Sequence record: OQ870568.1
Length of the DNA: 40,562 nt
Reading direction: 5' to 3' (one strand)
From: Escherichia phage Zappy
This document shows positions 2,559 through 39,486 of this stretch, piece by piece. Both the position numbers and the translations under genes were made by a program. The notes beneath the pieces are model-generated. The model made no database searches and was not told where the DNA came from. It was given only the letters and a program-made list of their open reading frames with translations. The stretch's first letter is position 1. Each line of letters opens with the position of its first letter.

Positions 2559-5500
2559 CCTTGATGTGGATACCTTGCTCCTCAAACGTTCCAAGTAACA
2601 GCTTCTGGGTAATTGGGTCGTTAGGAACCAGTTCACGGAACGTATTATACATCCCGGTCATGTAGTCACGCTCGTTGACACGAGTGTCGGCCTTCAGGTA
2701 GCCAGCCAAGTTGTAAGCCGAAACTCCAACGTTAGCAGCATATCCGAAAGCTGGAACCTGCTCCAAGAAGTTACCAACAACATTCATCACAGGGTCACTT
2801 GTAGCTGCACCAAACGTGATGGCACGTTCAGGCTTCTCTGTAGGCGAACGAGGTAGGATAGACGAACGGAGCATCTTAGTGGCCTCATATCCAGCGATTC
2901 CACCTAGAATGTTAGCTACCCCAAGTGGGCCACCCAGATGTGAACTACGGGACAGAGCCGCATAACCAATCATCGTCGGGTCCAGAGCTTGCTTAAGGTA
3001 GTCACGGTCTCGACCATCCTGCATAGCATAAGCCTTGACGTGCACCTGAGCTATGTAGTTGATACCAGCCAGACCCATAGACATCACGGTCGATAATGCA
3101 GCGTCAATCGCTCGGTTGTTCTTCGTGGCGTTATAGAAGGTACGCATGGTTCGCCCATTGATGGACTTGATGACGAAGTTCTTAAACTGAAGGACAGTCT
3201 TAGCGATAGGGCCATAAGCCTTGGCGTCCATGTTGGACAGCTTGTGGGGCCGGAGTAACGTTTCGTCAGCGATGGTGTCACCCATACGCCATAGGTCCAT
3301 AGCCCTTGGGTCCTGACTGAACGCCTTCTTATCCTTGATGGTGTACTTCCCGTCTGGACCACGAGTCACTGACTCACGGATTAGGGACTTAATGCCATTC
3401 CACTGCTCGTCAGATATACCAGCGGTCTTCAGCCAGCGGTCATCGAACTTACGCTTACTACCAGTCAGGCTATGCTCCACGATGTCAGACAGGAAGCCTT
3501 GACGTCCAGCATCTAACAGGTAGTTGGTCGTACCGTTGAGGACTTTAGTGAACGGAGAGCGTACTGCAAGTTCGCCAGTGTAATACTTGGCAGTCCCCAG
3601 AGCTGTAGCTGTACCACGACCGAGGTCACTGTAAGATCGCAGACGGTCAATGACATCCTGTTTAGACGGACGGATTGAGTCATCCAGTTCCTTACCGAAG
3701 ATAACATTGTGCAGGTCCTTAATCTCTGAGGCCCCAACCTTCTTGTTACGGAAGGCTAGGTCACGGAAAATCGGGACTCCATGCAGCATTGCACGAACGT
3801 TGCCACGAGCCAGCATACCACCAATCTCCGTTAAGTTCTGAACACCCATGTAGGCATTCTTAGCGAAGAACGATAGGTCTGTCATTGTGCGCATCACGGT
3901 AGCGAAGGCTGCATCATCAGCACCATCACGTCGAGCACGACCTGTTAGAATCTTCAAGGTGTCACGTAAGGTAGATACTTCACCTTTCAACTTACCGTCA
4001 TCCCCAGCCTTGTTCATCATGGTCTCAACCAAGTCCTTCATGTCCTTCGTGGTTTTGCCTGTACCAGCCATGATAGCAATATCGCCATTAACTCGACGGT
4101 TGTAGGCCGGGACAATCTTGTCCATGTCCCACTCACGCAGGTTGTTGACACTGAAGGTCTGACCGTTAGGTAGGACGATTGACATATCGCTATCGAACAG
4201 GTTACGAGCCTCAAGGAAGCTGTTGTTCTCCAGACCAACCAGACCGTTGATGTTCTCTTCCATTACGGATGAACGTTCGAACTGCTCGGTGTGTGAGATA
4301 CCGTAAGCCTTATCGTTGGCGTACTTATCGACCGCAGCAGCAAGTCCCTCTGGAGTCAACGTAGGGTCAGACTCTAAGAGTGCCTCGTCAACGCGTTTCT
4401 TGACTTCAGGTCGAGACGCATAGCTGGTCAACCATGACTTCTTGATGGCCTCCTGCAACGCCTCTGGACTCCCAAGCTCCTTGATGTACAGCTCCTTCAT
4501 CTGTTTGCTATACACATGAGGGACGTAGGTTCCCTTGAAGCGGCTACCCGGAAAGATAGACTGAGCGTCTGGACGACCAAACATCGCCGGGTTCTCCATC
4601 ATCTCACGCTTGGCGTCAAACTGGTTCTTCAGTAGGTCATAGACTTTAAGTTCTCCCGGAGTCAGTTCAGCCTTCAGGTTCCCACTTCCGTCTTCAATAG
4701 CCATAGACACACGCTGGTAGATGTCCTGACGGAATGCGCCAGAGTCTCGCCAGAATGCTGTCTGGAAGTATGGGTCCTTTAGTGCCTCAGTAACCGCATC
4801 GTCGATGTCGTTGTAGAACCGATGGTCCACAGCACGAAGTCTCTCGAATACGTCTGACGCAGTGGTCCCGATTTTACCTGAGGCCCCTGACTGCATACCG
4901 GTTGGTGAACGCACTAAGTCAGCAGCGACTCCACGAATCTCTGGGTTCTCAGACCGAAGTAGCTTCAGACCAATCTCGGTAAGTCCACCAAGGTTCACAC
5001 CAGCAGCGGCACGTTCTGGCTCAATCACTTCGTCGAAGACTTGACGTGTCTTAGGGTTCAGAGGGTTCTCACCAATCAGGATTGAACCATCTTCTAATCG
5101 TACACTTCCCGGCTCATTAGGAACGTCAGCGAACTTAACGCCTTGATAACTAAAGGTCTGCTCACCTTCTTGAATAGGTAGACGAGACAGGTCCTGACCA
5201 TCAACGTTACGGGCTGTCTCACGAGCTTCCAGACGTGTAGCTGGGCCGGCAAACTCATTAGTGTTGCGACCTAAGGCTCTGCCTAACCCATCAGCGATGG
5301 CAGTCATACCACCACCAAAGAGAGCACCACCAAGGATAGCTTCAGCCACATGAGCATCACCACCAGCCACTGAGGTACGGGCCATCTCTGATACACCAGC
5401 AAGTGCTCCAGATTGAGCAGCCACGGTGAACATCTTGTTGACCAGCTTCGCACCTTTGCCAACCTGTCCAGCGATAGGGACGTAGGTCAGCGGGTCTACA

Positions 5501-6441
5501 CCAGCACCAATCACACCAGCTGCTAACTGAGCACCAGTCCCAGCCTTGGCCTTCTCTTGGTCCAACTTCTGGTTCTCAAGCGCTAAGTTAATAAGCTCGG
5601 TCAGGTTCTGAGGGGAGCCACCAGTAATGACCCCGTAATACTGAGGAAGAACTCCAGCGTTACGAATCTGGTCCAGCTCCTCACGAGACCACTTATGGTT
5701 GTTCCAGCGGGTAGGATTGAACACATCGCCAATGACATCAAGTGAGTCCTCGGTCTGACCAGCGCGGATAGCCACGCCGACCATAGAGTTCTTCACTTCA
5801 GCTTCTGTAGCCGAGCCGAAACCGAACCACGTAGAGCGATCCTCTCGTTCCTGCATGGTCTCGCCAGTAGACTTATAGAACATCTCACCGAACGATTCGT
5901 TGGGAGCTTCAGGTGCTTGACCCTCAATGTTTAGACCAGCAGCGGTCGGAAGGTTCTCACCCAGAGCTACTTTAGGTTTAGCCTTGAGTCCTTCCGTGAG
6001 TGCGTCAAATACGTTAGCGCTTACTGGTGGAGTCTTTGGGCTAATACCATTGAGTGCTCGTGCGACTCCATTCTGATAGACTTCAGGGTCGTACCGGGAG
6101 CCTGTCTCATGGAAGCTGATAGCTTGAGCCAGAGCAGACAGGGTGTCAGGGTTCGATAGGTCGAGACTCTGGGTAGCTGGAATACCAGTTGCAGCCACCA
6201 CTGAGTCAATATAAGCCTTAGTGTCGTTCTCGTTAGGAGGCGCCCATCGGTTGATAATCTTCTCGATGGAGTCATAACCTTGGCGACCGTAGGACAGCAG
6301 GTTTTTACCTAAAGCTCGGACGCCAGACTCTGGACTATCGAAGGTGACGAATGAGCCATCATCTCCAGTCATTCCTTCCCATTGGTCCTTACTTACCCGG
6401 ATGTTACCCGGATTGTTATTGCGAATACCACGAGTCGCCAT
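2554..6441 (-). CDS. 16: Internal virion protein D (gp16), 1295 aa; N-terminal ~130 aa unlike the T7 transglycosylase domain as I recall it
   Basis: ORF track; size and long stretches (e.g. GASGKIGTTASDVFERL, SPTGMQSGASGK) resemble T7 gp16; ATG with AAGGAG 8 nt upstream; synteny. Confidence 0.9.
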   Translation of the reverse strand: MATRGIRNNNPGNIRVSKDQWEGMTGDDGSFVTFDSPESGVRALGKNLLSYGRQGYDSIEKIINRWAPPNENDTKAYIDSVVAATGIPATQSLDLSNPDTLSALAQAISFHETGSRYDPEVYQNGVARALNGISPKTPPVSANVFDALTEGLKAKPKVALGENLPTAAGLNIEGQAPEAPNESFGEMFYKSTGETMQEREDRSTWFGFGSATEAEVKNSMVGVAIRAGQTEDSLDVIGDVFNPTRWNNHKWSREELDQIRNAGVLPQYYGVITGGSPQNLTELINLALENQKLDQEKAKAGTGAQLAAGVIGAGVDPLTYVPIAGQVGKGAKLVNKMFTVAAQSGALAGVSEMARTSVAGGDAHVAEAILGGALFGGGMTAIADGLGRALGRNTNEFAGPATRLEARETARNVDGQDLSRLPIQEGEQTFSYQGVKFADVPNEPGSVRLEDGSILIGENPLNPKTRQVFDEVIEPERAAAGVNLGGLTEIGLKLLRSENPEIRGVAADLVRSPTGMQSGASGKIGTTASDVFERLRAVDHRFYNDIDDAVTEALKDPYFQTAFWRDSGAFRQDIYQRVSMAIEDGSGNLKAELTPGELKVYDLLKNQFDAKREMMENPAMFGRPDAQSIFPGSRFKGTYVPHVYSKQMKELYIKELGSPEALQEAIKKSWLTSYASRPEVKKRVDEALLESDPTLTPEGLAAAVDKYANDKAYGISHTEQFERSSVMEENINGLVGLENNSFLEARNLFDSDMSIVLPNGQTFSVNNLREWDMDKIVPAYNRRVNGDIAIMAGTGKTTKDMKDLVETMMNKAGDDGKLKGEVSTLRDTLKILTGRARRDGADDAAFATVMRTMTDLSFFAKNAYMGVQNLTEIGGMLARGNVRAMLHGVPIFRDLAFRNKKVGASEIKDLHNVIFGKELDDSIRPSKQDVIDRLRSYSDLGRGTATALGTAKYYTGELAVRSPFTKVLNGTTNYLLDAGRQGFLSDIVEHSLTGSKRKFDDRWLKTAGISDEQWNGIKSLIRESVTRGPDGKYTIKDKKAFSQDPRAMDLWRMGDTIADETLLRPHKLSNMDAKAYGPIAKTVLQFKNFVIKSINGRTMRTFYNATKNNRAIDAALSTVMSMGLAGINYIAQVHVKAYAMQDGRDRDYLKQALDPTMIGYAALSRSSHLGGPLGVANILGGIAGYEATKMLRSSILPRSPTEKPERAITFGAATSDPVMNVVGNFLEQVPAFGYAANVGVSAYNLAGYLKADTRVNERDYMTGMYNTFRELVPNDPITQKLLLGTFEEQGIHIKD

Positions 6442-14222: not shown

Positions 14223-14245
14223 TCTCCCTATAGTGATAGTTTAGT
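14223..14245 (-). promoter_or_regulatory. Phage RNAP promoter (phi10-like), ACTAAACTATCACTATAGGGAGA
   Basis: Positions -7 to +6 identical to the T7 consensus; immediately after the scaffold stop and upstream of the capsid gene. Confidence 0.8.
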
Positions 14246-25672: not shown

Positions 25673-26140
25673 CTAAACTGATTCGCGGTCAGATGTAACC
25701 AGTTCATTCTTGGTCCACCATCGCTTCACGTCGAAACTCGGACAGGCTTTGGCTGCTACTGAATGATGGGCCATTAGCTCTGCATTAGGGTACTTACTCA
25801 TAAGCTCCTCCAGCTTGTTGCGCAGGGAGTTCATCTGGGCTGGAGTGAAGTTAGCTTCAAACTGACCCTTAGCGTCAATTCCGCCTACAAGGCAGACGCC
25901 TACTGACCGGGAGTTCCAATCCTTAACGTGTGACCCTACGACATTTACCGGGCGACCCTCTTCCACAGTACCATCACGCTTGATGATAAAGTGGTAGCCT
26001 ACATCCAGCCAGCCTTGCTGCTTGTGCCACATACGGATGGTCTCTACCCCGATGTCCATCTCTGGCTTGGTAGCCGAACAGTGAACGAAGATAGCGTCAG
26101 TCCGGGACCGTGGGTTGAATTGCACCTTACTCACCATCAT
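25673..26140 (-). CDS. 3.5: Lysozyme (N-acetylmuramoyl-L-alanine amidase, RNAP inhibitor) gp3.5, 155 aa
   Basis: ORF track; DAIFVHCSATKP, WLDVGYHFIIKRDGTVE, KACPSFDVKRWWTKNELVTSDR resemble T7 lysozyme. Confidence 0.9.
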   Translation of the reverse strand: MMVSKVQFNPRSRTDAIFVHCSATKPEMDIGVETIRMWHKQQGWLDVGYHFIIKRDGTVEEGRPVNVVGSHVKDWNSRSVGVCLVGGIDAKGQFEANFTPAQMNSLRNKLEELMSKYPNAELMAHHSVAAKACPSFDVKRWWTKNELVTSDRESV

Positions 26141-27541: not shown

Positions 27542-27564
27542 ATGTCCTACAGTGATAGTTTAGG
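27542..27564 (-). promoter_or_regulatory. Phage RNAP promoter (phi2.5-like), CCTAAACTATCACTGTAGGACAT (one mismatch at -3)
   Basis: Motif match; overlaps the gp2 stop, upstream of the SSB gene. Confidence 0.6.
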
Positions 27565-27718
27565 TCTCAGGACGAATCCGTCCGACCATAAACCCAGCGT
27601 CCTCATACTCTTGTGACTTCAGGGTAGCCTCTTCAAGAGACTTTGCGTACACCGGAACCTCGAAAGACTGGGTACGTCCCTCAAGTTCCACGATGTATTT
27701 CTTCTCTACGTCAGTCAT
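27560..27718 (-). CDS. 2: Host RNA polymerase inhibitor gp2-like, 52 aa
   Basis: Hand translation [52 protein letters not shown]; SFEVP.YA..L.EA resembles T7 gp2; RBS AAGGAG 8 nt upstream. Below the ORF-track size cut-off. Confidence 0.7.
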
Positions 27719-27796
27719 AGACCACGCTCCTTCCATAAGTTGTAGAGCTGAAGGTAATCGACGTTACCTGTCTCCTCAAATTTACGCTCGCACCAC

Positions 27797-30332: not shown

Positions 30333-30512
30333 TTATGCTCCTACGAAATACTTCTCTTGGTTGACCATAGAGTCTTTGCCCTCAGCGTTACGAAAAGCAC
30401 CCTTGACACCACCACCACGCTTGGTCTTGTTCAGCTTGCGGCCCTTCGTAATGTAATCTTCAGTCTGCTGACGTTCACGGATGCGCTCGAAGTTGATAGT
30501 GTTCTGATACAT
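30333..30512 (-). CDS. 1.1: gp1.1-like protein, 59 aa
   Basis: Hand translation MYQNTINFERIRERQQTEDYITKGRKLNKTKRGGGVKGAF...; TKGRKLNKTKR matches T7 gp1.1; RBS GGAG. Below the ORF-track size cut-off. Confidence 0.7.
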   Translation of the reverse strand: MYQNTINFERIRERQQTEDYITKGRKLNKTKRGGGVKGAFRNAEGKDSMVNQEKYFVGA

Positions 30513-30552
30513 TGTTGTAGCTCCAGTTGTTTAGGTTATAGGGTTAATCATG

Positions 30553-30579
30553 AAGGCCACGACTCTGAGTCATGACCTT
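30553..30579 (-). promoter_or_regulatory. RNase III-type processing hairpin (R1.1-like)
   Basis: Minus-strand AAGGTCATGACTCAGAGTCGTGGCCTT; stem pairs with G-U wobbles, so it is an RNA-level structure; same position as T7 R1.1 (between gene 1 and gene 1.1). Confidence 0.5.
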
Positions 30580-30584
30580 GAGTC

Positions 30585-30607
30585 TAATCCTATAGTGATA
30601 GTTTAGG
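30585..30607 (-). promoter_or_regulatory. Phage RNAP promoter (phi1.1-like), CCTAAACTATCACTATAGGATTA
   Basis: Motif match; first promoter downstream of the RNAP gene, as for T7 phi1.1A. Confidence 0.75.
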
Positions 30608-30900: not shown

Positions 30901-33582
30901 TTAAGCGAATGCAAAGTCTGAAGACAAGATGTCTTCGATATTCAGTTTACCTTTCTTCGGAAGCTCAGGCAACTTATCGCGCTGGCTCTCGTGAAGCTGG
31001 TATTCAAACTGCTCGTAGAAGTCAAGCAGCACATCGTTGTCGCGGTAGGTCTCGACCATCGTCTCACGGACGCCACGGAACAGATACTCAGCGTCAGCCG
31101 GGATGGTCCCGAAGCTATCGTGAATCACTGCGAATGACATCACGCCATACTTGCGGTGCGTGTGGACTACAGTCTTGCGTAGGTGGCTACCATCTTGTGA
31201 GTGGACGAAGTTCGGGCTAATGCCTGACTCCTGCTTGTGCTTGTCCAGCTCTTTCTTAGTACCTTTGTTGACTGTAGGCTGAAGGTTAAATGACCCTAAG
31301 AACATCAGGTTCAAACGTGTGGTATCCTTCTTGCGGTATTCCTGCCAGACCGGGAAACCATCAGGTGTTACCCAGTGTACAGGAAGGCAAGGCTTCAGGA
31401 TTTCACCAGTCTTCTTGTCCTTCACTTCAGCAGCCAGCAACTTGGCAGCGCCTTGAAGCCACTTCATCGCGTCAACCGCAGCAACTACTGTCACACTCAC
31501 AGCTTCCCAAATCATCTTAGCCATGAAGCGAGACGCTTGGCTCGGCTCGGTGAACATAGCGCCAGACCCTGAGTCAATCGCTGGCATCACGATGTCCTCG
31601 TAAACTTGGTCTGCGAAGCCGTACTCTTTCGACCCGTATGCCAGAGTCATGACTGAACGCTTAGTGACCTTGCGTGACATCCCGTAGGTCAGCCACTGAC
31701 GGGCCAGCTCTCGTGTCCCCAGCTTGATACGTTCGGTAATCTCACCAGTTTTCTTGTCCTCGTGAGTGACCATCTCGTTGTCAGTACCGTTAATCAGCAG
31801 GACTTTAAGCTCCTCATCAATGCGGTCAGACACGATGCGGTAGATGTCTTGGACCTTACCGGATGGCGTCAGATTTACTGCATGTCCACCAATGTGGTCA
31901 CGAAGCATCGCGCTGAAGTGCTGAATACCAGAGCAGGACCCATCGAACGCTATCGGCAGTGAGCAGGAGTAAGACAATCCGTGGTGCATTACACCAGCAT
32001 ACTCGAAGCAGAACGCAAGGAAGCAGAACGGAGAGTCTAACTTGCCCCACCACTCAATACTATCCATCGGTGCCTTAGCAGCAGCCATGATGTTTTCGTG
32101 GTTGTCTTCCACCCACTTGATGCGCTCCTCGAAGGTGACTTTATCAACACCCGCGCAGTTTGCACCATGGACCTTCAGCCATTTGAAACCGTCAGCACCA
32201 ATAGGCTTACCGACTGCCAGAGTCAGGAGACCCTTCTGCATGTCGTTACCCTGAGGGTTGAACATCGGCACAGCGTAGACTCGACCGCGCCAGTCCATGT
32301 TGTATGGAAACCAGATGGCCTTGAACTGAGAGAACTTATTCGCTTGGTTGACGATAAAGCTCAGTGATAATCTGCGTGACTGTCGGGCCTTCTCGCGGCG
32401 ATAGATACCAGCAGCAGCCTTCTTCCATGCCTTGAGTTCCTCCTCGGTCTCACCCGCATAGTCCTCAGGCTTCAGTGGTTCCATCTGAGGGATGTCATCG
32501 ATAGGCGTGTTGTTCAACTTCTCGACCATGTTCACCACGTCCAATACCTTCTTGTTTACTTTCCAAGGTGTATTTTGAATGATGTTCACAGCGTCATAGA
32601 CTTCAGGCATGTACACGTCTTCATAACGTGCTACCGCAGACTTAGACCCTAAGCGAATCAATGGTAACGGTCTGCGACCTTTGGCCCAGTACCCACCGCC
32701 TACTACACCAGTCCACGGCTTAGGTGGAACGACGCAAGGCTGGTAGACTGGAGCGATACCCGCAAGGCTGAATCCTCGTTGTGCCATCTTCTTGACCCAG
32801 AAGTCTGACAGGTGGACCATCTCAACGTCAGCCGCCGCATTGCCAGCACCATAACGCTTAAGCTCGACCAGTTGTGTGGACTGGATGACAATCTCTAGCA
32901 TCTTGATGCCAACGTGTACCGCTTCGGTCGGACTCCAAGTACCCCACGCATCTTCCAGTTGACCTTGCTCCAGCATGGAGGTCTCAACTGCTTGCATGTA
33001 GGCTTTCTTGTAGGATGCCCCGGACCGCTTATTCAGGTTATCAGCTATCGCCTTCTTGAAATGCTCTTTCTCCTTGTCACGGATGCGACCGAATCGGATT
33101 TCATCCTCAAGTGTGCGACCTATCGCGGAGGCCATTGGTGTAATCGGTATCCCTTCAGGCTTTACCAGCTTGGAGAGGATGACCTTCAGTATGATAACCG
33201 CAGCAGACTCACAGGAGATGCGCATCGAGCGGTCTTTAACGCCCTTCTCTTCAGTGCTCAACATGGTGAACGCTACGCTAGGACGTGAGGTTGACAGCTT
33301 CCCGTCTTGTCCTTCATGCCACTCCTTGACGGCTTGCGCAATCTTAGGTACCAGAGTCTGCATCAAAGGCTTGGCGACCTGATTGTCTGCCAGTTCCCCG
33401 CGCTCGGTCTGGCGCTCAAGGTTCTTGATGAAACGTCGCTCACCTTCTGTGTATGCCTCATGCTCAAGCTGAAGCTGTTTGACTGCAAGGTCTTGCCCGT
33501 AGTGGTCGGCCAGCAGGTTAAACGGCTCAATGGCGTTCGACACATCAGAGAAGTCGTGTTTGTCAATAGAGATGACGCTCAT
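30901..33582 (-). CDS. 1: Single-subunit DNA-directed RNA polymerase gp1, 893 aa
   Basis: ORF track; long near-identical stretches to T7 RNAP (PFCFLAFCFEYAGV, FDGSCSGIQHFSAMLRD, AIWFPYNMDWRGRVYAV, SFGTIPADA, C-terminal FAFA). Confidence 0.97.
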   Translation of the reverse strand: MSVISIDKHDFSDVSNAIEPFNLLADHYGQDLAVKQLQLEHEAYTEGERRFIKNLERQTERGELADNQVAKPLMQTLVPKIAQAVKEWHEGQDGKLSTSRPSVAFTMLSTEEKGVKDRSMRISCESAAVIILKVILSKLVKPEGIPITPMASAIGRTLEDEIRFGRIRDKEKEHFKKAIADNLNKRSGASYKKAYMQAVETSMLEQGQLEDAWGTWSPTEAVHVGIKMLEIVIQSTQLVELKRYGAGNAAADVEMVHLSDFWVKKMAQRGFSLAGIAPVYQPCVVPPKPWTGVVGGGYWAKGRRPLPLIRLGSKSAVARYEDVYMPEVYDAVNIIQNTPWKVNKKVLDVVNMVEKLNNTPIDDIPQMEPLKPEDYAGETEEELKAWKKAAAGIYRREKARQSRRLSLSFIVNQANKFSQFKAIWFPYNMDWRGRVYAVPMFNPQGNDMQKGLLTLAVGKPIGADGFKWLKVHGANCAGVDKVTFEERIKWVEDNHENIMAAAKAPMDSIEWWGKLDSPFCFLAFCFEYAGVMHHGLSYSCSLPIAFDGSCSGIQHFSAMLRDHIGGHAVNLTPSGKVQDIYRIVSDRIDEELKVLLINGTDNEMVTHEDKKTGEITERIKLGTRELARQWLTYGMSRKVTKRSVMTLAYGSKEYGFADQVYEDIVMPAIDSGSGAMFTEPSQASRFMAKMIWEAVSVTVVAAVDAMKWLQGAAKLLAAEVKDKKTGEILKPCLPVHWVTPDGFPVWQEYRKKDTTRLNLMFLGSFNLQPTVNKGTKKELDKHKQESGISPNFVHSQDGSHLRKTVVHTHRKYGVMSFAVIHDSFGTIPADAEYLFRGVRETMVETYRDNDVLLDFYEQFEYQLHESQRDKLPELPKKGKLNIEDILSSDFAFA

Positions 33583-33602
33583 ACTTAAAGTCCTTGTTAT
33601 TA

Positions 33603-33642
33603 GTCTTTCACTTAGAGTCTCTTTGGTCTTTCACTTGGAGTC
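33603..33642. repeat. 17-bp direct repeat x2 (gtctttcactt[a/g]gagtc) in the RNAP leader
   Basis: Two copies 23 bp apart between the promoter at 33652-33674 and the RNAP start codon. Confidence 0.6.
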
Positions 33643-33651
33643 TTAGACCTT

Positions 33652-33674
33652 GAGTCCTATAGTGATAGTTAAGT
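33652..33674 (-). promoter_or_regulatory. Phage RNAP promoter located 75 bp upstream of the RNAP gene itself, ACTTAACTATCACTATAGGACTC
   Basis: Motif match; lies between the stop of the 86-aa early ORF (33680) and the RNAP ATG (33582). Confidence 0.7.
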
Positions 33675-33679
33675 CATAA

Positions 33680-33940
33680 TTACTTGCATATCAGTGGGTT
33701 AGCGTGAAGATGACTGAAGTCACCGTGAGTCGTGTGCTTGATGGTCGACCGTTGGTCTATCGCCTTCCAGCCTGAGACTAAAAGTTTACCATCGTCAGTG
33801 ATCGGTCGTCCACCAAACGCCAGACTCATCAGTTCGTACTTATTGCCCTCAGCCCTCATGCGGCGATGTAAGAACACGTCACGCTCTATTTGCTCTACAC
33901 GGCTACGGATAGATGGTTTGTTAATGTATACGGTTTTCAT
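33680..33940 (-). CDS. Early hypothetical protein, 86 aa
   Basis: ORF track; start overlaps the upstream stop as TAATG; occupies the T7 0.4-0.7 region. No similarity recognised. Confidence 0.55.
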   Translation of the reverse strand: MKTVYINKPSIRSRVEQIERDVFLHRRMRAEGNKYELMSLAFGGRPITDDGKLLVSGWKAIDQRSTIKHTTHGDFSHLHANPLICK

Positions 33941-34959: not shown

Positions 34960-34989
34960 ATCTTACATCTTATCGTTACATCTTGTCAA
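34960..34989 (-). promoter_or_regulatory. Host sigma70 early promoter (T7 A2/A3-like): TTGACA - 18 bp - TAAGAT
   Basis: Minus-strand GTTGACAAGATGTAACGATAAGATGTAAGATGTACCACAT; -35 perfect, -10 TAAGAT as in T7 A2; downstream GTACCACAT as in T7 A3. Confidence 0.65.
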
Positions 34990-35280: not shown

Positions 35281-35373
35281 TGAGACTGTAGGTTAGTGAG
35301 ACTGTAGGTTAGTGAGACTGTAGGTTAGTGAGACTGTAGGTTAGTGAGACTGTAGGTTAGTGAGACTGTAGGT
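35281..35373. repeat. Tandem array of a 16-bp unit (tgagactgtaggttag), 5 perfect copies plus a partial one
   Basis: Read directly; the core CTGTAGG also recurs at 35243, 35256, 35651 and 35668. Confidence 0.9.
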
Positions 35374-35848
35374 GTAGGACGTAATGTTATACTATAACAC
35401 TATACAGATAGAGACTCAAAGAAGACCTATAGCCCCTACCTATCGTCCTTCCCTAAGCCATAGCCTAGACCTATCGTTGACCTGAAGTCTTTACCATCGG
35501 TCCAACCTTATGATAGACTGGCTGTGACTGCAAGGAGCAGTAACGGGTAGGGCCTTTGGTCTGGACTTAAAGAGGGCCTATGGGGAGACTTGAGGTTCTT
35601 GAACTGTGAGATGTGGTCTCAAACTTTTGGTCCAAAACTCATCGTCACTACTGTAGGCCACAGCCACTGTAGGCCAAGGACCGTAGGTCAGGCGACACTA
35701 GGATAGACCAATAAGTAGGATGACCCTAAGTGAGCTTCTCTTAAGGTGTTACCTAAAGTCCTTGACTGCAGTAGCTAAGGTCAGTAGAGTAGCGTCAGCT
35801 ATGAACTGACCTTAGGTCTTCCGCTCATGAATCGTTACCATGATTGCG

Positions 35849-36153: not shown

Positions 36154-36176
36154 CATCCCTATAGTGATAGTTAAGT
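36154..36176 (-). promoter_or_regulatory. Phage RNAP promoter (phiOR-like), ACTTAACTATCACTATAGGGATG
   Basis: Motif match; last promoter before the probable right genome end. Confidence 0.7.
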
Positions 36177-36189
36177 TAACCTATTGAAT

Positions 36190-36732
36190 TTACTTGTGGT
36201 TTCTCTTGGCCCTATCACGCTTAGGGGACCGTAGGGAAACAGCGTACTCCTTGTGCTTCTCTTCACGTAGTGCTGTCAGCCATGCTTCAAGTTCTATCAC
36301 AGAGTCGGAAGTCTTTGTGTAGCACTTACCCTTAAGTCGCAACTGAGCGCGATACTTTCCGGTAGGCTTGAAGAAGCTGATACCCTTAGGGAGACCATTA
36401 GTCTCGCCACCTCCTGAGTTCCATCTGTTCTCCAATGCTGTTACTAACCTGTAGTTATCCGGCCTGTCATCAAGCCTATCACCATTGATATGGTCAACCA
36501 TCATGCCAGAAGGTATTCGACCAACGGCTAGGCTGTAGATGATTCTGGCACGTCTATAGCGACTACCAAGGACCTTCACGATTGCGTACCCAGACGGATG
36601 GACTGAATGTCCCATGACCTCGCCTGGCTTCTTGTTAGAGCCTTTATAGGACTTCTTGCACACCAACTCACCATCTACATAAGCATAGTGATTAAAGAGG
36701 GCCACCCTGTCGATGGCCTTCTGTTTACTCAT
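36190..36732 (-). CDS. HNH homing endonuclease (HNH-B), 180 aa, immediately downstream of the large terminase gene
   Basis: ORF track; GRIPSGMMVDHINGDRLDDRPDNYRLVT HNH motif; RBS AGGAGG. Confidence 0.8.
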   Translation of the reverse strand: MSKQKAIDRVALFNHYAYVDGELVCKKSYKGSNKKPGEVMGHSVHPSGYAIVKVLGSRYRRARIIYSLAVGRIPSGMMVDHINGDRLDDRPDNYRLVTALENRWNSGGGETNGLPKGISFFKPTGKYRAQLRLKGKCYTKTSDSVIELEAWLTALREEKHKEYAVSLRSPKRDRAKRNHK

Positions 36733-36745
36733 ATTTCTCCTCCTA

Positions 36746-38512
36746 TTAGTGGAACGTAACGTATGACCCTAGTCCCAGCTCGTCGTCCGTATCGTGAGTT
36801 ACCCGGACCCCATTGTCCCAGAACTCAGTGTGGATGGACTCGAAGCCTTTCCGTGGGTTCTCCATCTGTTCCTCCAGCCACTCCTCAGTGACTTCACGTT
36901 CGCCTTTGTTGGCATCCTTAGCCATCGACTCAACGAAGAACTGTACACCGATAGCCAGCGCATCAAGTCGGTCATCGTGTGCCAAGGCTCCACGCTCACG
37001 AGAGATACGGGTCATCTGGTAGAAGAGAGAGTAGATAGGGTTACGAACACCATCCTTATCAGAGGCTGACTGGTAGTCTTGGACGATAGCAGCAGCGTTG
37101 ACGATAAGTCTGTGAGACCCCATGATAGGCTCCAGAACGTCACAGATTCGGAGTTCCTTCTGACCCTTACTCTTCACTTCAGTTACAGCAGCGGGATGAA
37201 TACGGGCAGCTACAGGCTTGAATAACTCAAGGTACATACCATCACCGAAGTTACCCTCAATGACGTATTCGTTTACCTTCCACTTACGACCAATCTTAGC
37301 CAAGGCTTCCAGCGTAGAGTCTTCATAACCACCGCGCATACCACCAACTTCCATAGCGAAGATGTAGCCGTTTAGCTGATATAGTACCGCATAACCAGTT
37401 TCATCCTTACCGCGACCACTAGGGTCAATGACCAGAATCTTCTGGGTGTATGAGCTGAAGGCAGAACCTACAGTCTGATACGTGTGGTACGAGTCACCCA
37501 TGAGGCCAACGTTAGGAACGTCCTCACGCTTGTTCTGAGGGTTAGGAAGCCATTGGTAGACCATTGGGCTGGACTCTGGGTCCAAGTCTGCTACGATAAG
37601 GTCACGGAGCTTCAGAGGGTACTTCTCGGCATCACTCAGGTTAGGGTTAAGCATGAACTGTAGAGCGAAGCCAGCTTTACCATAGGACAGCTCACGTTCC
37701 TTCAGGTCCGTATCATCGAATCGTACTTCATCGGTAGGACGCCAGTAGAAGGACTCAGGGTCCTCTTCAAGCTCTGCCTGAAGCATAGGAGCCAGACGGT
37801 CGCCGTAAGACTGCCAGTCCTTCTTATCGCGTGGGTAGCGAGCGGGCCAGATGGTAGTGGTATATCCACGACCTTCCAGCTCACGATACAAGGTCATCTC
37901 GTTCTGAGGAGTACCCAGATAGATGATTGTACCTCCCGGCTTCAGGATAGCGTCGAACTCTTTCACAAGCTCTGACAGACGGTCTCGTGCAGCCTGAGTC
38001 GCTGAGTTGTTCGGAACCTCCACGTCATCGGCAATCAGGATGTCAGCACGACTACCAGTCAACTGACCAGTGATACCAACGGACTTAACTGAAGGTGAGT
38101 GGTCTGGCTTGGCTGGTCCAACGTCGAAGCTGATAACCGCATCTCGCTGCCCCTGCTTAGGTTTAAGTTCCTGAAGCTGAGGCATGAGGTCGATGATTCG
38201 CTTGATGAAGATGGAGTTCGCATCGGCTCGTTCCTTTGAGGCCGACACAATCATGAACTTCAAGTCTGGGTTGTTCCATAGTTTCCAGACCACGAAACCA
38301 CAGGTCAGAAACGACTTGCCAATACCACGGAACGCCTGAAGGATGAAGCGGCGATTATCCCCAGCAGCCAGCTTCTTACACATATCTATCTGGCAGCGGG
38401 TTGGAACCGGAAGGCTAAGAGCTTTCCAGAGAACGAAGATGAAGAACACGAAGTCGTCCCTCATCCTTTGGGTCATTTCTGCCTGTCTTTCAACAGGTGT
38501 TTTCTTAGACAT
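36746..38512 (-). CDS. 19: Terminase large subunit (DNA maturase B) gp19, 588 aa
   Basis: ORF track; near-identical stretches to T7 gp19 ([74 protein letters not shown]). Confidence 0.95.
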
Positions 38513-39385: not shown

Positions 39386-39448
39386 AGTTGCCCTCCCGGT
39401 TTATCAGATTTCACGTAGAGTCGCCTCCACTAGTTAGTGTTAACCATA

Positions 39449-39475
39449 AAGGCCACTACATATAGTAATGACCTT
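39449..39475 (-). promoter_or_regulatory. RNase III-type processing hairpin (R18.5-like)
   Basis: Minus-strand AAGGTCATTACTATATGTAGTGGCCTT; same conserved flanks and covarying stem as the hairpins at 30553 and 23150; between gp18 and gp18.5. Confidence 0.45.
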
Positions 39476-39486
39476 GAGTCTAACAC

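What the first reader, a model, noticed from the sequence alone, without database searches (positions are those of the whole stretch)
33583..33674. Phage-type promoter directly upstream of the phage RNA polymerase gene (possible positive autoregulation)
A full copy of the phage promoter motif (ACTTAACTATCACTATAGGACTC) lies 75 bp upstream of the RNAP start codon, with a 17-bp direct repeat pair (33603-33642) in the leader. In T7, gene 1 is transcribed only by host RNAP from the early promoters, and the first phage promoter lies after gene 1. If functional, this promoter lets the polymerase drive its own gene; the repeats could be a control site.
Basis: partly seen in the sequence, partly recalled or inferred. 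Interest (0 to 1): 0.6.

Follow-up and report, generated by a model that had tools for sequence, protein, structure and literature searches.

The report
Phage promoter upstream of polymerase gene
A genuine, conserved copy of the phage's own promoter sits 75 bases before its RNA polymerase gene, so the polymerase very probably helps transcribe its own gene, but the same site is already annotated in close relatives (K1F-like coliphages) and similar arrangements exist in other T7-family phages.

Summary
The window is a complete, circularly permuted K1F-like (Kayfunavirus) coliphage genome with its genes on the minus strand. An exact 23-bp phage promoter lies at 33652-33674(-), with +1 at 33657. 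A 75-nt leader without a terminator runs to the RNA polymerase ATG at 33582. It contains a 17-bp direct repeat (16/17 identical, 23-nt spacing).

The site scores as well as the genome's ten other phage promoters. It is present in all sampled relatives with at least 79% polymerase identity, and about 221 phage records hold the region. It co-varies with three different promoter specificities and with the polymerase specificity loop, so it is under selection as a promoter. Any initiation there must transcribe gene 1, so positive feedback is the natural consequence. No transcript data exist to confirm it.

It is not new. EcoDS1, CR44b and PE3-1 records annotate this site. Pseudomonas phages Keila and CHF1 have the same layout, and LUZ100 has a mapped equivalent. 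T7 itself has phiOL upstream of gene 1.

The repeats belong to a word array (TAAGAC/CTTAAAGA) found widely in T7-family leaders, including T7's phi1.1B origin leader. Nothing shows they are an operator. Interest is low to moderate.

The parts
33652..33674 (-). Phage RNA polymerase promoter (-17 to +6), ACTTAACTATCACTATAGGACTC; +1 G at 33657. It has a class II-like GGA start.
   Evidence: Exact match, with 0 expected by chance. Leave-one-out PWM score 32.8 bits. Orthologous site annotated 'promoter / phi' in EcoDS1 and 'predicted promoter' in CR44b. It co-varies with the lineage-specific promoter consensus and the RNAP specificity loop.
33583..33657 (-). 75-nt 5' leader of the gene 1 transcript. 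It is 61% A+T and 64% purine, has no stable structure and no terminator.
   Evidence: Fold z-score 0.24. No terminator-like site. No Rfam match. A+T content is at the 96th percentile of 75-nt windows.
33623..33643 (-). Direct repeat copy A (AGACTCCAAGTGAAAGACCAA), promoter-proximal.
   Evidence: The core AAGTGAAAGAC occurs only twice in the window, both in this leader.
33600..33620 (-). Direct repeat copy B (AGACTCTAAGTGAAAGACTAA), 23 nt downstream of copy A.
   Evidence: Two copies of AAGT-N2-3-AAGAC are kept in every Kayfunavirus lineage examined, at 13/14- or 22/23-nt spacing.
33580..33595 (-). Ribosome-binding region and start codon, AAGGACTTTAAGTATG (SD AAGGA at 33591-33595). The last 15 nt, AGGACTTTAAGTATG, are identical to the gene 1.1 start region of T7.
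30901..33582 (-). Gene 1, a T7-type single-subunit RNA polymerase (893 aa).
   Evidence: phrog_414 E=0. 98.7% identical to K1F gp1 and 62.8% to T7 gp1.
33680..33940 (-). Upstream early gene (gp0.38 homologue, function unknown). Its stop codon lies 5 nt before the promoter.
34960..34989 (-). Predicted sigma-70 early promoter (TTGACA-18-TAAGAT). It is the likely equivalent of one of the three host-RNAP promoters annotated in EcoDS1, and the likely source of the first gene 1 transcripts.
   Evidence: Consensus scan. EcoDS1 annotates host promoters at 469-800 from the left end. The left end maps to window 35611.
30542..30607 (-). Next phage promoter (+1 at 30590) followed by an RNase III-type hairpin. 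This is the homologue of T7 phi1.1A/R1.1. No phi1.1B-type second promoter or word-repeat leader follows it.
36154..36176 (-). phiOR-like phage promoter, about 550 nt before the right genome end. No phiOL-like promoter lies between the left end (35611) and the gene 1 promoter.
27560..27736 (-). gp2-like inhibitor of host RNA polymerase. After it acts, only phage-promoter transcription of gene 1 can continue.
   Evidence: phrog_1307 E=1e-24.
25673..26140 (-). gp3.5-like amidase/lysozyme, the probable negative regulator of the phage RNAP by analogy with T7.
   Evidence: phrog_822 E=7e-80. The regulatory role is inferred from T7 knowledge.

Best explanation
The site is a functional, class II-type promoter for the phage's own RNA polymerase. 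It is the first phage promoter from the left genome end and the ortholog of the 'phi' promoter annotated before gene 1 in EcoDS1 and other K1F-like phages.

Proposed mechanism:
1. After DNA entry, host RNA polymerase starts at the sigma-70 early promoters about 1.3-1.5 kb upstream. It reads through ocr and the small early genes into gene 1. The only structures on the way are RNase III-type hairpins, and there is no terminator.
2. The first polymerase molecules recognise the promoter at 33652-33674 and initiate at G33657. Because the 75-nt leader has no terminator, they necessarily transcribe gene 1 and the genes after it. This creates a positive feedback loop.
3. That loop also keeps gene 1 transcribed after the gp2-like protein has shut off host polymerase.
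4. The GGA start, and the -2/-3 variants seen in some lineages, suggest moderate strength. The gp3.5 lysozyme homologue probably damps it later.

Shown here: the sequence, its position, conservation and co-evolution with polymerase specificity. Inferred: initiation in vivo, the host read-through that primes the loop, the size of the feedback and the damping.
For: - The match to the genome's promoter consensus is exact, and the PWM score equals that of the other ten sites.
- All 21 IMG/VR relatives with RNAP identity of 79% or more have a cognate promoter about 75-105 nt before the gene 1 start codon (+1 position). So do K1F, ASO2B, PE3-1, EcoDS1, CR44b, EcpYZU01 and Dev2.
- 221 phage records hold the 131-nt region, against about 218 records with RNAP identity of 80% or more.
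- The site tracks three promoter specificities: AACTATCACTATAGG in the K1F type, AACCCTCACT(A/G)TAGG in L019/L045/EcpYZU01, and GGAAGGTACACTATAGG in L017. The RNAP specificity loops change in parallel: TRLNL..SFNLQ, TRLDL..TFRLQ and TRIKL..VQYR.
- Grafting the K1F specificity loop into T7 RNAP activates a promoter carrying the K1F -12..-7 consensus (PMC3458549).
- There is no terminator or stable hairpin between +1 and the ATG.
- Host promoters are annotated upstream in EcoDS1 and predicted here.
- gp2 and gp3.5 homologues are present and there is no gp0.7 kinase.
- Precedent: phi1, directly upstream of the LUZ100 RNAP gene, was mapped by ONT-cappable-seq and a positive feedback loop was proposed (PMC10134795).
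Against: - No transcript 5'-end or in vitro data for any Kayfunavirus was found in the searchable library.
- Conservation and co-variation show the site is used as a promoter. They do not show that gene 1 expression is the selected function.
- The leader resembles T7's phi1.1B origin leader, so replication priming could be the main role.
- Several lineages carry -2 or -3 substitutions at this promoter only (CACTAAAGG in the Dev2 type, CACTTTAGG in ASO2B). These may mean weak activity.
- The contribution relative to host-promoter transcription is unknown.
Confidence: 0.7

Rival explanations
1. The promoter plus its A/T-rich word-repeat leader is mainly a replication-origin module. It would be the K1F-clade counterpart of T7's primary origin (phi1.1A/phi1.1B plus the A/T-rich leader of gene 1.1), placed on the other side of gene 1. 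Short transcripts from it would prime DNA synthesis, and gene 1 transcription would be a by-product. This does not exclude autoregulation.
For: - T7 replication starts at phi1.1A/phi1.1B, and every T7 origin needs a T7 promoter (PMC8373140).
- The 3' half of the leader aligns to the T7 phi1.1B/gene 1.1 leader with score 39, against a maximum of 24 in 500 shuffles. It shares an identical AGGACTTTAAGTATG.
- In T7, multi-copy CTT(T/A)AAG-type words (5 per 75 nt) occur only after phiOL and phi1.1B. The other 15 promoters have 0-2, and the genome average is 0.19.
- K1F-likes have the phi1.1A/R1.1 homologue and a gp1.1 homologue after gene 1, but no phi1.1B-type module there.
- One T7-type primase site (TGGTC) lies on the template strand of the leader.
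Against: - The leader is only 61% A+T and is not among the most A/T-rich stretches of the genome. Other promoters also have A/T-rich leaders.
- The primase-type site is not conserved in all lineages (reading of the sequences).
- Single copies of the same word sit at ordinary ribosome-binding sites in T7, so the words may be translational.
- No replication data exist.
Confidence: 0.25
2. The site's selected role is as a phiOL substitute. It would be the left-most phage promoter, from which the fast phage polymerase takes over genome internalisation and left-end transcription, including transcription across concatemers. Autoregulation would be incidental.
For: - K1F-likes have no phage promoter between the left end (window 35611) and this site.
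- All outgroup loci that reach far enough upstream have a phiOL-type site about 1.7-3.4 kb upstream of gene 1 (about 0.6 kb in one T3-like contig with a short early region) and none next to gene 1.
- T7 phiOL is at 405.
- That T7 DNA entry depends on transcription is established knowledge, also summarised in PMC4517105.
Against: - Keila has both a phiOL-like site and a gene-1-proximal promoter, so the two are not strictly alternatives.
- By the time polymerase exists, gene 1 is already inside the cell, so the gain over a promoter just after gene 1 is small.
Confidence: 0.15
3. The 17-21-bp direct repeats are an operator or control site for a DNA- or RNA-binding regulator of gene 1.
For: - The repeat is far beyond chance.
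- Two AAGT-N2-3-AAGAC copies are kept in every Kayfunavirus lineage.
- CHF1 (Ghunavirus) has ATCTTAAAGAC twice at the same 23-nt spacing.
Against: - The word occurs nowhere else in the genome.
- Spacing varies between lineages, 13/14 versus 22/23.
- No early ORF has a Pfam DNA-binding domain, and there is no MarR-like gene as in LUZ100.
- Related words sit at ordinary ribosome-binding sites and in many T7-family leaders. This fits a translational-enhancer, standby or mRNA role at least as well.
Confidence: 0.1
4. The site is a chance or relic promoter copy with no function.
For: None beyond the absence of direct transcript data.
Against: - Zero chance expectation.
- Universal conservation in the clade.
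- Compensatory change with RNAP specificity in three lineages.
Confidence: 0.03

Closest known systems
The 'phi' promoter annotated before gene 1 in Escherichia phage EcoDS1 (EU734172, 2244-2266), with the same site in CR44b, PE3-1 and K1F
   Same: It is the orthologous site. It has the same 23-mer apart from one or two bases upstream of -17. It starts at or within a few bases after the gp0.38 stop codon (it overlaps the CDS end by one base in EcoDS1) and precedes a 75-nt leader with the same repeats.
   Different: Nothing substantive. The window is simply another isolate (97% identical to phage SR04 and 94.5% to K1F over this region). PE3-1 labels the site 'host RNAP promoter', which looks like an annotation slip.
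LUZ100 phi1, a phage-specific promoter directly upstream of the RNAP gene (Putzeys et al. 2023, PMC10134795)
   Same: A phage-RNAP promoter lies immediately before the RNAP gene, host read-through is proposed to prime it, and positive feedback is proposed.
   Different: LUZ100 is a distant Pseudomonas phage with temperate features. Its promoter is proposed to be flanked by MarR repressor sites, and the transcription start was mapped experimentally. Here there is no MarR-like gene, the phage is strictly lytic in type, and there are no transcript data.
T7 phiOL (position 405)
   Same: It is a phage promoter upstream of gene 1 and the first phage promoter from the left end. Its leader carries the same kind of CTTAAAGA word array.
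   Different: phiOL lies about 2.8 kb upstream of gene 1, ahead of the host promoters A1-A3. The site here is 75 nt from the gene 1 ATG, and K1F-likes lack a phiOL.
T7 phi1.1B plus the gene 1.1 leader (part of the T7 primary replication origin)
   Same: It has the same layout: promoter, an A/T-rich leader of about 80 nt with tandem CTTAAG-type words, then AGGACTTTAAGTATG. The local alignment is significant.
   Different: In T7 the module follows gene 1 and precedes gene 1.1. Here it precedes gene 1, and the gp1.1 homologue (30333-30512) lacks it. Origin function is untested here.
T7 gene 1 upstream region (E. coli promoter C at 3113 and RNase III site R1)
   Same: It is the same genomic slot, the short intergenic region just before gene 1.
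   Different: T7 has a minor host promoter and an RNase III hairpin there. The window has a phage promoter and an unstructured leader, although it shares the GACTCAAGGTC word with true RNase III-type hairpins elsewhere in the genome.
Synthetic T7 'autogene' (T7 gene 1 cloned under a T7 promoter; Dubendorff and Studier 1991, cited from memory)
   Same: It uses the same circuit logic: the polymerase gene is driven by its own promoter, giving self-amplifying expression.
   Different: The autogene is an engineered plasmid construct that needs lac repression and lysozyme to be tolerated. The site here is a natural element in a lytic phage.

Membership tests
T7-group single-subunit RNAP promoter | A conserved block of about 23 bp (-17 to +6) matching the genome's own multi-copy consensus, on the transcribed strand | tested here: met
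   Exact CTTAACTATCACTATAGG core. Eleven co-oriented sites in the genome. Leave-one-out score 32.8 bits. Zero matches expected by chance.
T7-group single-subunit RNAP promoter | Initiation at G, with a GG start directly after TATA | tested here: met
   The sequence reads ...CACTATA|GGACTC, with +1 G at 33657. This is sequence only; the actual start was not measured.
T7-group single-subunit RNAP promoter | The specificity region (-12 to -8) matches the specificity loop of the cognate polymerase | tested here: met
   Promoter class and loop sequence change together in three Kayfunavirus lineages, and the gene 1 site follows each time. The K1F loop and promoter pairing was shown experimentally (PMC3458549).
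T7-group single-subunit RNAP promoter | Initiation by the phage polymerase demonstrated in vitro or in vivo | not testable with these tools
   No Kayfunavirus transcript-start data were found in the library.
Self-transcribed phage RNAP gene (LUZ100 phi1 type / autogene) | A phage-specific promoter directly upstream of the RNAP gene with no terminator between them | tested here: met
   75-nt leader, fold z-score 0.24, no terminator-like site.
Self-transcribed phage RNAP gene (LUZ100 phi1 type / autogene) | An independent host-RNAP route that makes the first polymerase | tested here: inconclusive
   Sigma-70-like sites are predicted at 34960-34989 and 35391-35419, but the count is no more than in shuffles. 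Three host promoters are annotated at the equivalent place in EcoDS1. No terminator lies before gene 1. Read-through was not measured.
Self-transcribed phage RNAP gene (LUZ100 phi1 type / autogene) | A repressor (MarR-like) with sites flanking the promoter, as proposed for LUZ100 | tested here: not met
   The early ORFs have no Pfam DNA-binding or MarR domain. The repeats lie downstream of +1, not flanking the promoter.
T7-type replication origin (phi1.1A/B type) | A phage promoter followed by an A/T-rich region | tested here: inconclusive
   The promoter is present. The leader is 61% A+T (96th percentile) but is not among the most A/T-rich segments of the genome.
T7-type replication origin (phi1.1A/B type) | Sequence relationship to the T7 phi1.1B origin leader | tested here: met
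   Local alignment score 39 against a shuffle maximum of 24. Shared 15-mer AGGACTTTAAGTATG. Shared tandem word array.
T7-type replication origin (phi1.1A/B type) | Replication initiation mapped to the site | not testable with these tools
   This requires experiments on infected cells.
T7-type RNase III processing site (R1-like) | An extended irregular hairpin (AAGGTC...GGCCTT type) | tested here: not met
   The leader folds no better than shuffles (z 0.24). Genuine hairpins of this type lie immediately downstream of the GACTCAAGGTC words at 30584 and 39480, and others at about 34285 and 34835.

The most novel reading that the evidence does not exclude
The promoter and word-repeat leader before gene 1 may be a conserved T7-family module, not just an extra promoter. 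In this reading the tandem TAAGAC/CTTAAAGA word array marks origin-type promoters, as in T7 phiOL and phi1.1B. In K1F-like, gh-1-like and phi15-like phages the module sits in front of gene 1. One element would then couple polymerase self-amplification to the start of DNA replication. The word array would be the so far unrecognised cis-determinant, acting in replication priming or as a translational or standby element.
Probability: 0.2. Interest if true: 0.55.

Novelty: already known. Interest (0 to 1): 0.3.

Why it matters
If the promoter is active, K1F-type phages run their key transcription enzyme on a self-amplifying loop rather than on the strict scheme of T7, where host polymerase makes gene 1 mRNA. 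That bears on how fast these therapeutic-candidate phages take over a cell, and on how polymerase supply survives host-polymerase shut-off. It also bears on the use of K1F polymerase and promoter parts in synthetic circuits.

The survey done here suggests that gene-1-proximal phage promoters are normal in several Studiervirinae genera, so T7 is not a universal template. The element itself is already annotated, so the practical gain is modest. It amounts to a clear, cheap experimental test (transcript-start mapping and a promoter-down mutant) and a pointer to the unexplained leader word array.

Tried and rejected
- RNase III site in the leader. The leader shares GACTCAAGGTC with two clear RNase III-type hairpins, but it does not fold better than shuffles. 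Rejected.
- Known RNA family. There was no Rfam match at E up to 1.
- Tandem Repeats Finder does not call the two-copy 23-nt repeat. The repeat finder and direct counting do.
- Operator for a phage regulator. The early ORFs have no DNA-binding domain and the word has no other copies in the genome. Not supported.
- Leader words as a general property of all phage-promoter leaders in this genome. Only a mild GACT/AGACT enrichment is seen elsewhere, and the AAGAC/GACTYNAAG array is specific to the gene 1 leader.
- Extreme A/T richness as an origin signature. The leader is not among the most A/T-rich windows.
- Literature. The K1F genome paper (Scholl and Merril 2005, PMC1317022) and Chen and Schneider 2005 (PMC1275584) are not held, so I could not check whether they discuss this promoter. 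Searches for Kayfunavirus or K1F transcript mapping found nothing. Papers on phi15, phiPsa17, SH3, IMM-002 and Hafnia phage Ca do not discuss a promoter before gene 1.
- The first pure-Python k-mer survey timed out and was redone with numpy.

Full report
**What the window is.** All large ORFs lie on the minus strand. The region around the finding is 97% identical to Escherichia phage SR04 and 94-95% identical to K1F and other Kayfunavirus phages. Alignment with the left ends of K1F and EcoDS1 places the physical left end of the genome at window 35611. The window is therefore a whole, circularly permuted, reverse-oriented K1F-like genome. ORF 30901-33582(-) is the T7-type RNA polymerase (phrog_414, E=0). 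It is 98.7% identical to K1F gp1 and 62.8% identical to T7 gp1.

**Checking the observation.**
- The 23-mer ACTTAACTATCACTATAGGACTC is present exactly at 33652-33674(-). No match with up to 3 mismatches is expected in shuffles.
- The first G after TATA is at 33657 and the ATG at 33582, so the leader is 75 nt.
- Nine sites share the exact CACTATAGG core and two more have one-base variants, all on the minus strand.
- In a leave-one-out weight matrix the gene 1 site scores 32.8 bits, third best of nine.
- It begins 5 nt after the stop codon of the upstream gp0.38 homologue.
- The repeat is real: 16/17 identical at 33626-33642 and 33603-33619, extending to 19/21 with 23-nt spacing. None of 2000 shuffles reached 16.

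**Is it a working promoter?** I collected 80 loci encoding relatives of the polymerase from IMG/VR.
- In every one of the 21 loci with polymerase identity of 79% or more, the 300 nt before gene 1 contain an 18-mer that recurs at the locus's other promoter positions. It puts +1 about 75-105 nt before the gene 1 start codon. In none of the 37 loci at 58-64% identity does this happen.
- The site follows the lineage's own promoter. It is AACTATCACTATAGG in K1F-type genomes, AACCCTCACTATAGG in L019/L045, AACCCTCACTGTAGG in EcpYZU01 and GGAAGGTACACTATAGG in L017. Each matches the other promoters of the same genome.
- The polymerase specificity loop changes in step. It reads TRLNLMFLGSFNLQPT in the K1F type, TRLDLMFLGTFRLQPT (T3-like Asp) in the AACCC lineages and TRIKLMFMG-VQYRPT in L017. 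The A/T-rich recognition loop changes as well.
- A site that is rewritten each time the polymerase changes specificity is being kept as a promoter.
- Independent experimental support for the K1F loop and promoter pairing comes from Temme et al. 2012 (PMC3458549).
- In GenBank, 221 phage records contain the 131-nt promoter and leader region at 80% coverage or more. About 218 records have a polymerase at least 80% identical. The feature is effectively universal in the clade.

**Consequence for gene 1.** The leader has no terminator-like site and no structure beyond chance (z 0.24). It has no Rfam match. Any transcript started at 33657 therefore runs into gene 1.

Upstream, the minus strand carries sigma-70-like sites, where EcoDS1 has three annotated host promoters. 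The hairpins at about 34835 and 34285 are of the RNase III type and lack a T-tract. Host polymerase can therefore plausibly make the first gene 1 mRNA.

The phage encodes a gp2-like host-polymerase inhibitor and a gp3.5-like lysozyme, but no gp0.7 kinase. The best reading is a host-primed, self-sustaining loop. The phage polymerase amplifies gene 1 transcription and prolongs it past host shut-off. From T7 knowledge, damping by lysozyme would follow.

The GGA start groups the site with the early and middle promoters (33657, 30590, 28523, 27547) rather than the GGGAGA capsid-type promoter at 14228. Some lineages carry -2 or -3 substitutions only at this promoter (CACTAAAGG in the Dev2 type, CACTTTAGG in ASO2B). 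This suggests tuned, moderate strength.

**What is already known.**
- The orthologous 23-mer is annotated 'promoter / phi' in EcoDS1 (EU734172) and 'predicted promoter' in CR44b. In PE3-1 it is annotated as a promoter but labelled host RNAP promoter.
- A 2026 Kayfunavirus paper lists the repeat at the 3' end of the gene before the polymerase gene (PMC13298934).
- I could not read the original K1F paper.
- For LUZ100, a phage-specific promoter directly upstream of the polymerase gene was mapped by ONT-cappable-seq, and a positive feedback loop was proposed (PMC10134795).
The T7 record has phiOL at 405, upstream of gene 1, as well as E. coli promoter C at 3113. The outgroup loci that extend far enough upstream all have a phiOL-type site, mostly about 1.7-3.4 kb upstream. 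K1F-likes have no phiOL, so the gene 1 promoter is their first phage promoter from the left end, about 1.95 kb in.
- The gene-1-proximal layout also occurs outside the clade, in Pseudomonas phages Keila (Pifdecavirus, +1 at -104) and CHF1 (Ghunavirus, -103). It is absent in phiPccP-1 and Pasteurella phage PS07.

**The repeats.**
- The core AAGTGAAAGAC occurs only twice in the window, both times in this leader. The leader is far richer in AAGAC/GACTYNAAG words than the other ten promoter leaders.
- Every Kayfunavirus lineage keeps two AAGT-N2-3-AAGAC copies, at 13/14- or 22/23-nt spacing. A last related word forms the ribosome-binding context GGACTTTAAGTATG.
- CHF1 has ATCTTAAAGAC twice at 23-nt spacing, and Keila has four CTTAAG-type words.
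- Across Studiervirinae, tandem CTTAAAGA/CTTAAGA words follow phiOL and one promoter next to gene 1. That promoter is downstream in T7 (phi1.1B) and in the KP32-, T3- and phiPccP-like phages, and upstream in K1F-likes, Keila and CHF1.
- In T7 itself these words reach 5 per 75 nt only after phiOL and phi1.1B. The genome average is 0.19 and the other promoters have 0-2.
- The 3' half of the K1F-type leader aligns significantly with the T7 phi1.1B/gene 1.1 leader and shares AGGACTTTAAGTATG.
- The window's own gp1.1 homologue (Pfam Phage_1_1, 30333-30512) has only the phi1.1A/R1.1-like promoter and hairpin.
- Since phi1.1A/B are T7's primary origin (PMC8373140), an origin-type role for the module is a live alternative or addition.
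- Single copies of the word at ordinary T7 ribosome-binding sites make a translational role equally possible.
- Nothing supports an operator: there is no DNA-binding early protein and no other copies of the word.

**Verdict.** The element is already annotated in close relatives and has precedents elsewhere, so novelty is low. The leader word array and its link to T7's origin-type leaders is the only part that remains unexplained.

Noticed in passing
L090 (Pseudomonas phage Keila) about 3795-3918; L093 (Pseudomonas phage CHF1) about 4545-4666: Both Pseudomonas T7-family phages (Pifdecavirus, Ghunavirus) have a cognate phage promoter about 100 nt upstream of their RNAP gene. Their leaders carry tandem CTTAAAGAC words; CHF1 has two copies at 23-nt spacing. 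A gene-1-proximal phage promoter is therefore not confined to the K1F clade.
   Followed up: partly
window 33583-33657(-); L094 (T7) 405-480 and 5923-6009; many loci: Tandem CTT(T/A)AAG(A)/TAAGAC words mark the leaders of phiOL and of one promoter adjacent to gene 1 across Studiervirinae. In T7 they reach 5 per 75 nt only after phiOL and phi1.1B. Their function is unknown; it could be origin-related or a translational enhancer.
   Followed up: partly
window 30542-30590(-), 39440-39485(-), about 34285(-), about 34835(-): There are four RNase III-type hairpins (AAGGTC...GGCCTT). Two begin with GACTCAAGGTC, the same word that starts the unstructured gene 1 leader. The one at 30542-30590 is the homologue of T7 R1.1.
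   Followed up: partly
window 35281-35373: A perfect 16-nt tandem array (5.8 copies; CCTACAGTCTCACTAA on the minus strand) lies just inside the left end. It resembles the short-repeat arrays next to T7-family terminal repeats. The left genome end maps to 35611.
   Followed up: partly
window 36190-36732(-): An HNH homing-type endonuclease ORF (180 aa, phrog_99) sits between the large terminase gene (36746-38512) and the phiOR-like promoter.
   Followed up: no
L003 (PE3-1, KJ748011) 2874-2896: The GenBank record labels the 23-mer before gene 1 'host RNAP promoter', although it is the exact phage-promoter sequence. This is a probable annotation slip. ASO2B annotates K1F-type promoters elsewhere but not its CACTTTAGG variant before gene 1.
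   Followed up: yes
L013-L015, L021, L022, L089 (Dev2 type); L002 (ASO2B); L088 (EcpYZU01): In several sub-lineages the gene 1 promoter alone departs from the genome consensus at -2 or -3 (CACTAAAGG, CACTTTAGG, CACTGTAGG). This hints at selection for reduced strength or relaxed constraint at this site.
   Followed up: partly
RNAP residues aligned to T7 739-770 and 88-106 (window 30901-33582; L019, L088, L017): Within one genus-level clade the polymerase specificity loop and the A/T-rich recognition loop have switched at least twice (K1F type, T3-like Asp type, L017 type). All promoters were rewritten in step, which makes a compact natural set of orthogonal polymerase and promoter pairs.
   Followed up: partly
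L089 (Cronobacter phage Dev2) 1079-1813: Dev2 is annotated with a 'phage protein kinase' in its early region, whereas the window and K1F have no gp0.7-type kinase. Early-gene content varies while the gene 1 promoter stays.
   Followed up: no
L043 (T3-like IMG/VR contig) 3340-3974: This T3-like contig has only about 600 nt between its phiOL-type promoter and gene 1, with no ocr or kinase genes. It is an example of a very short early region.
   Followed up: no
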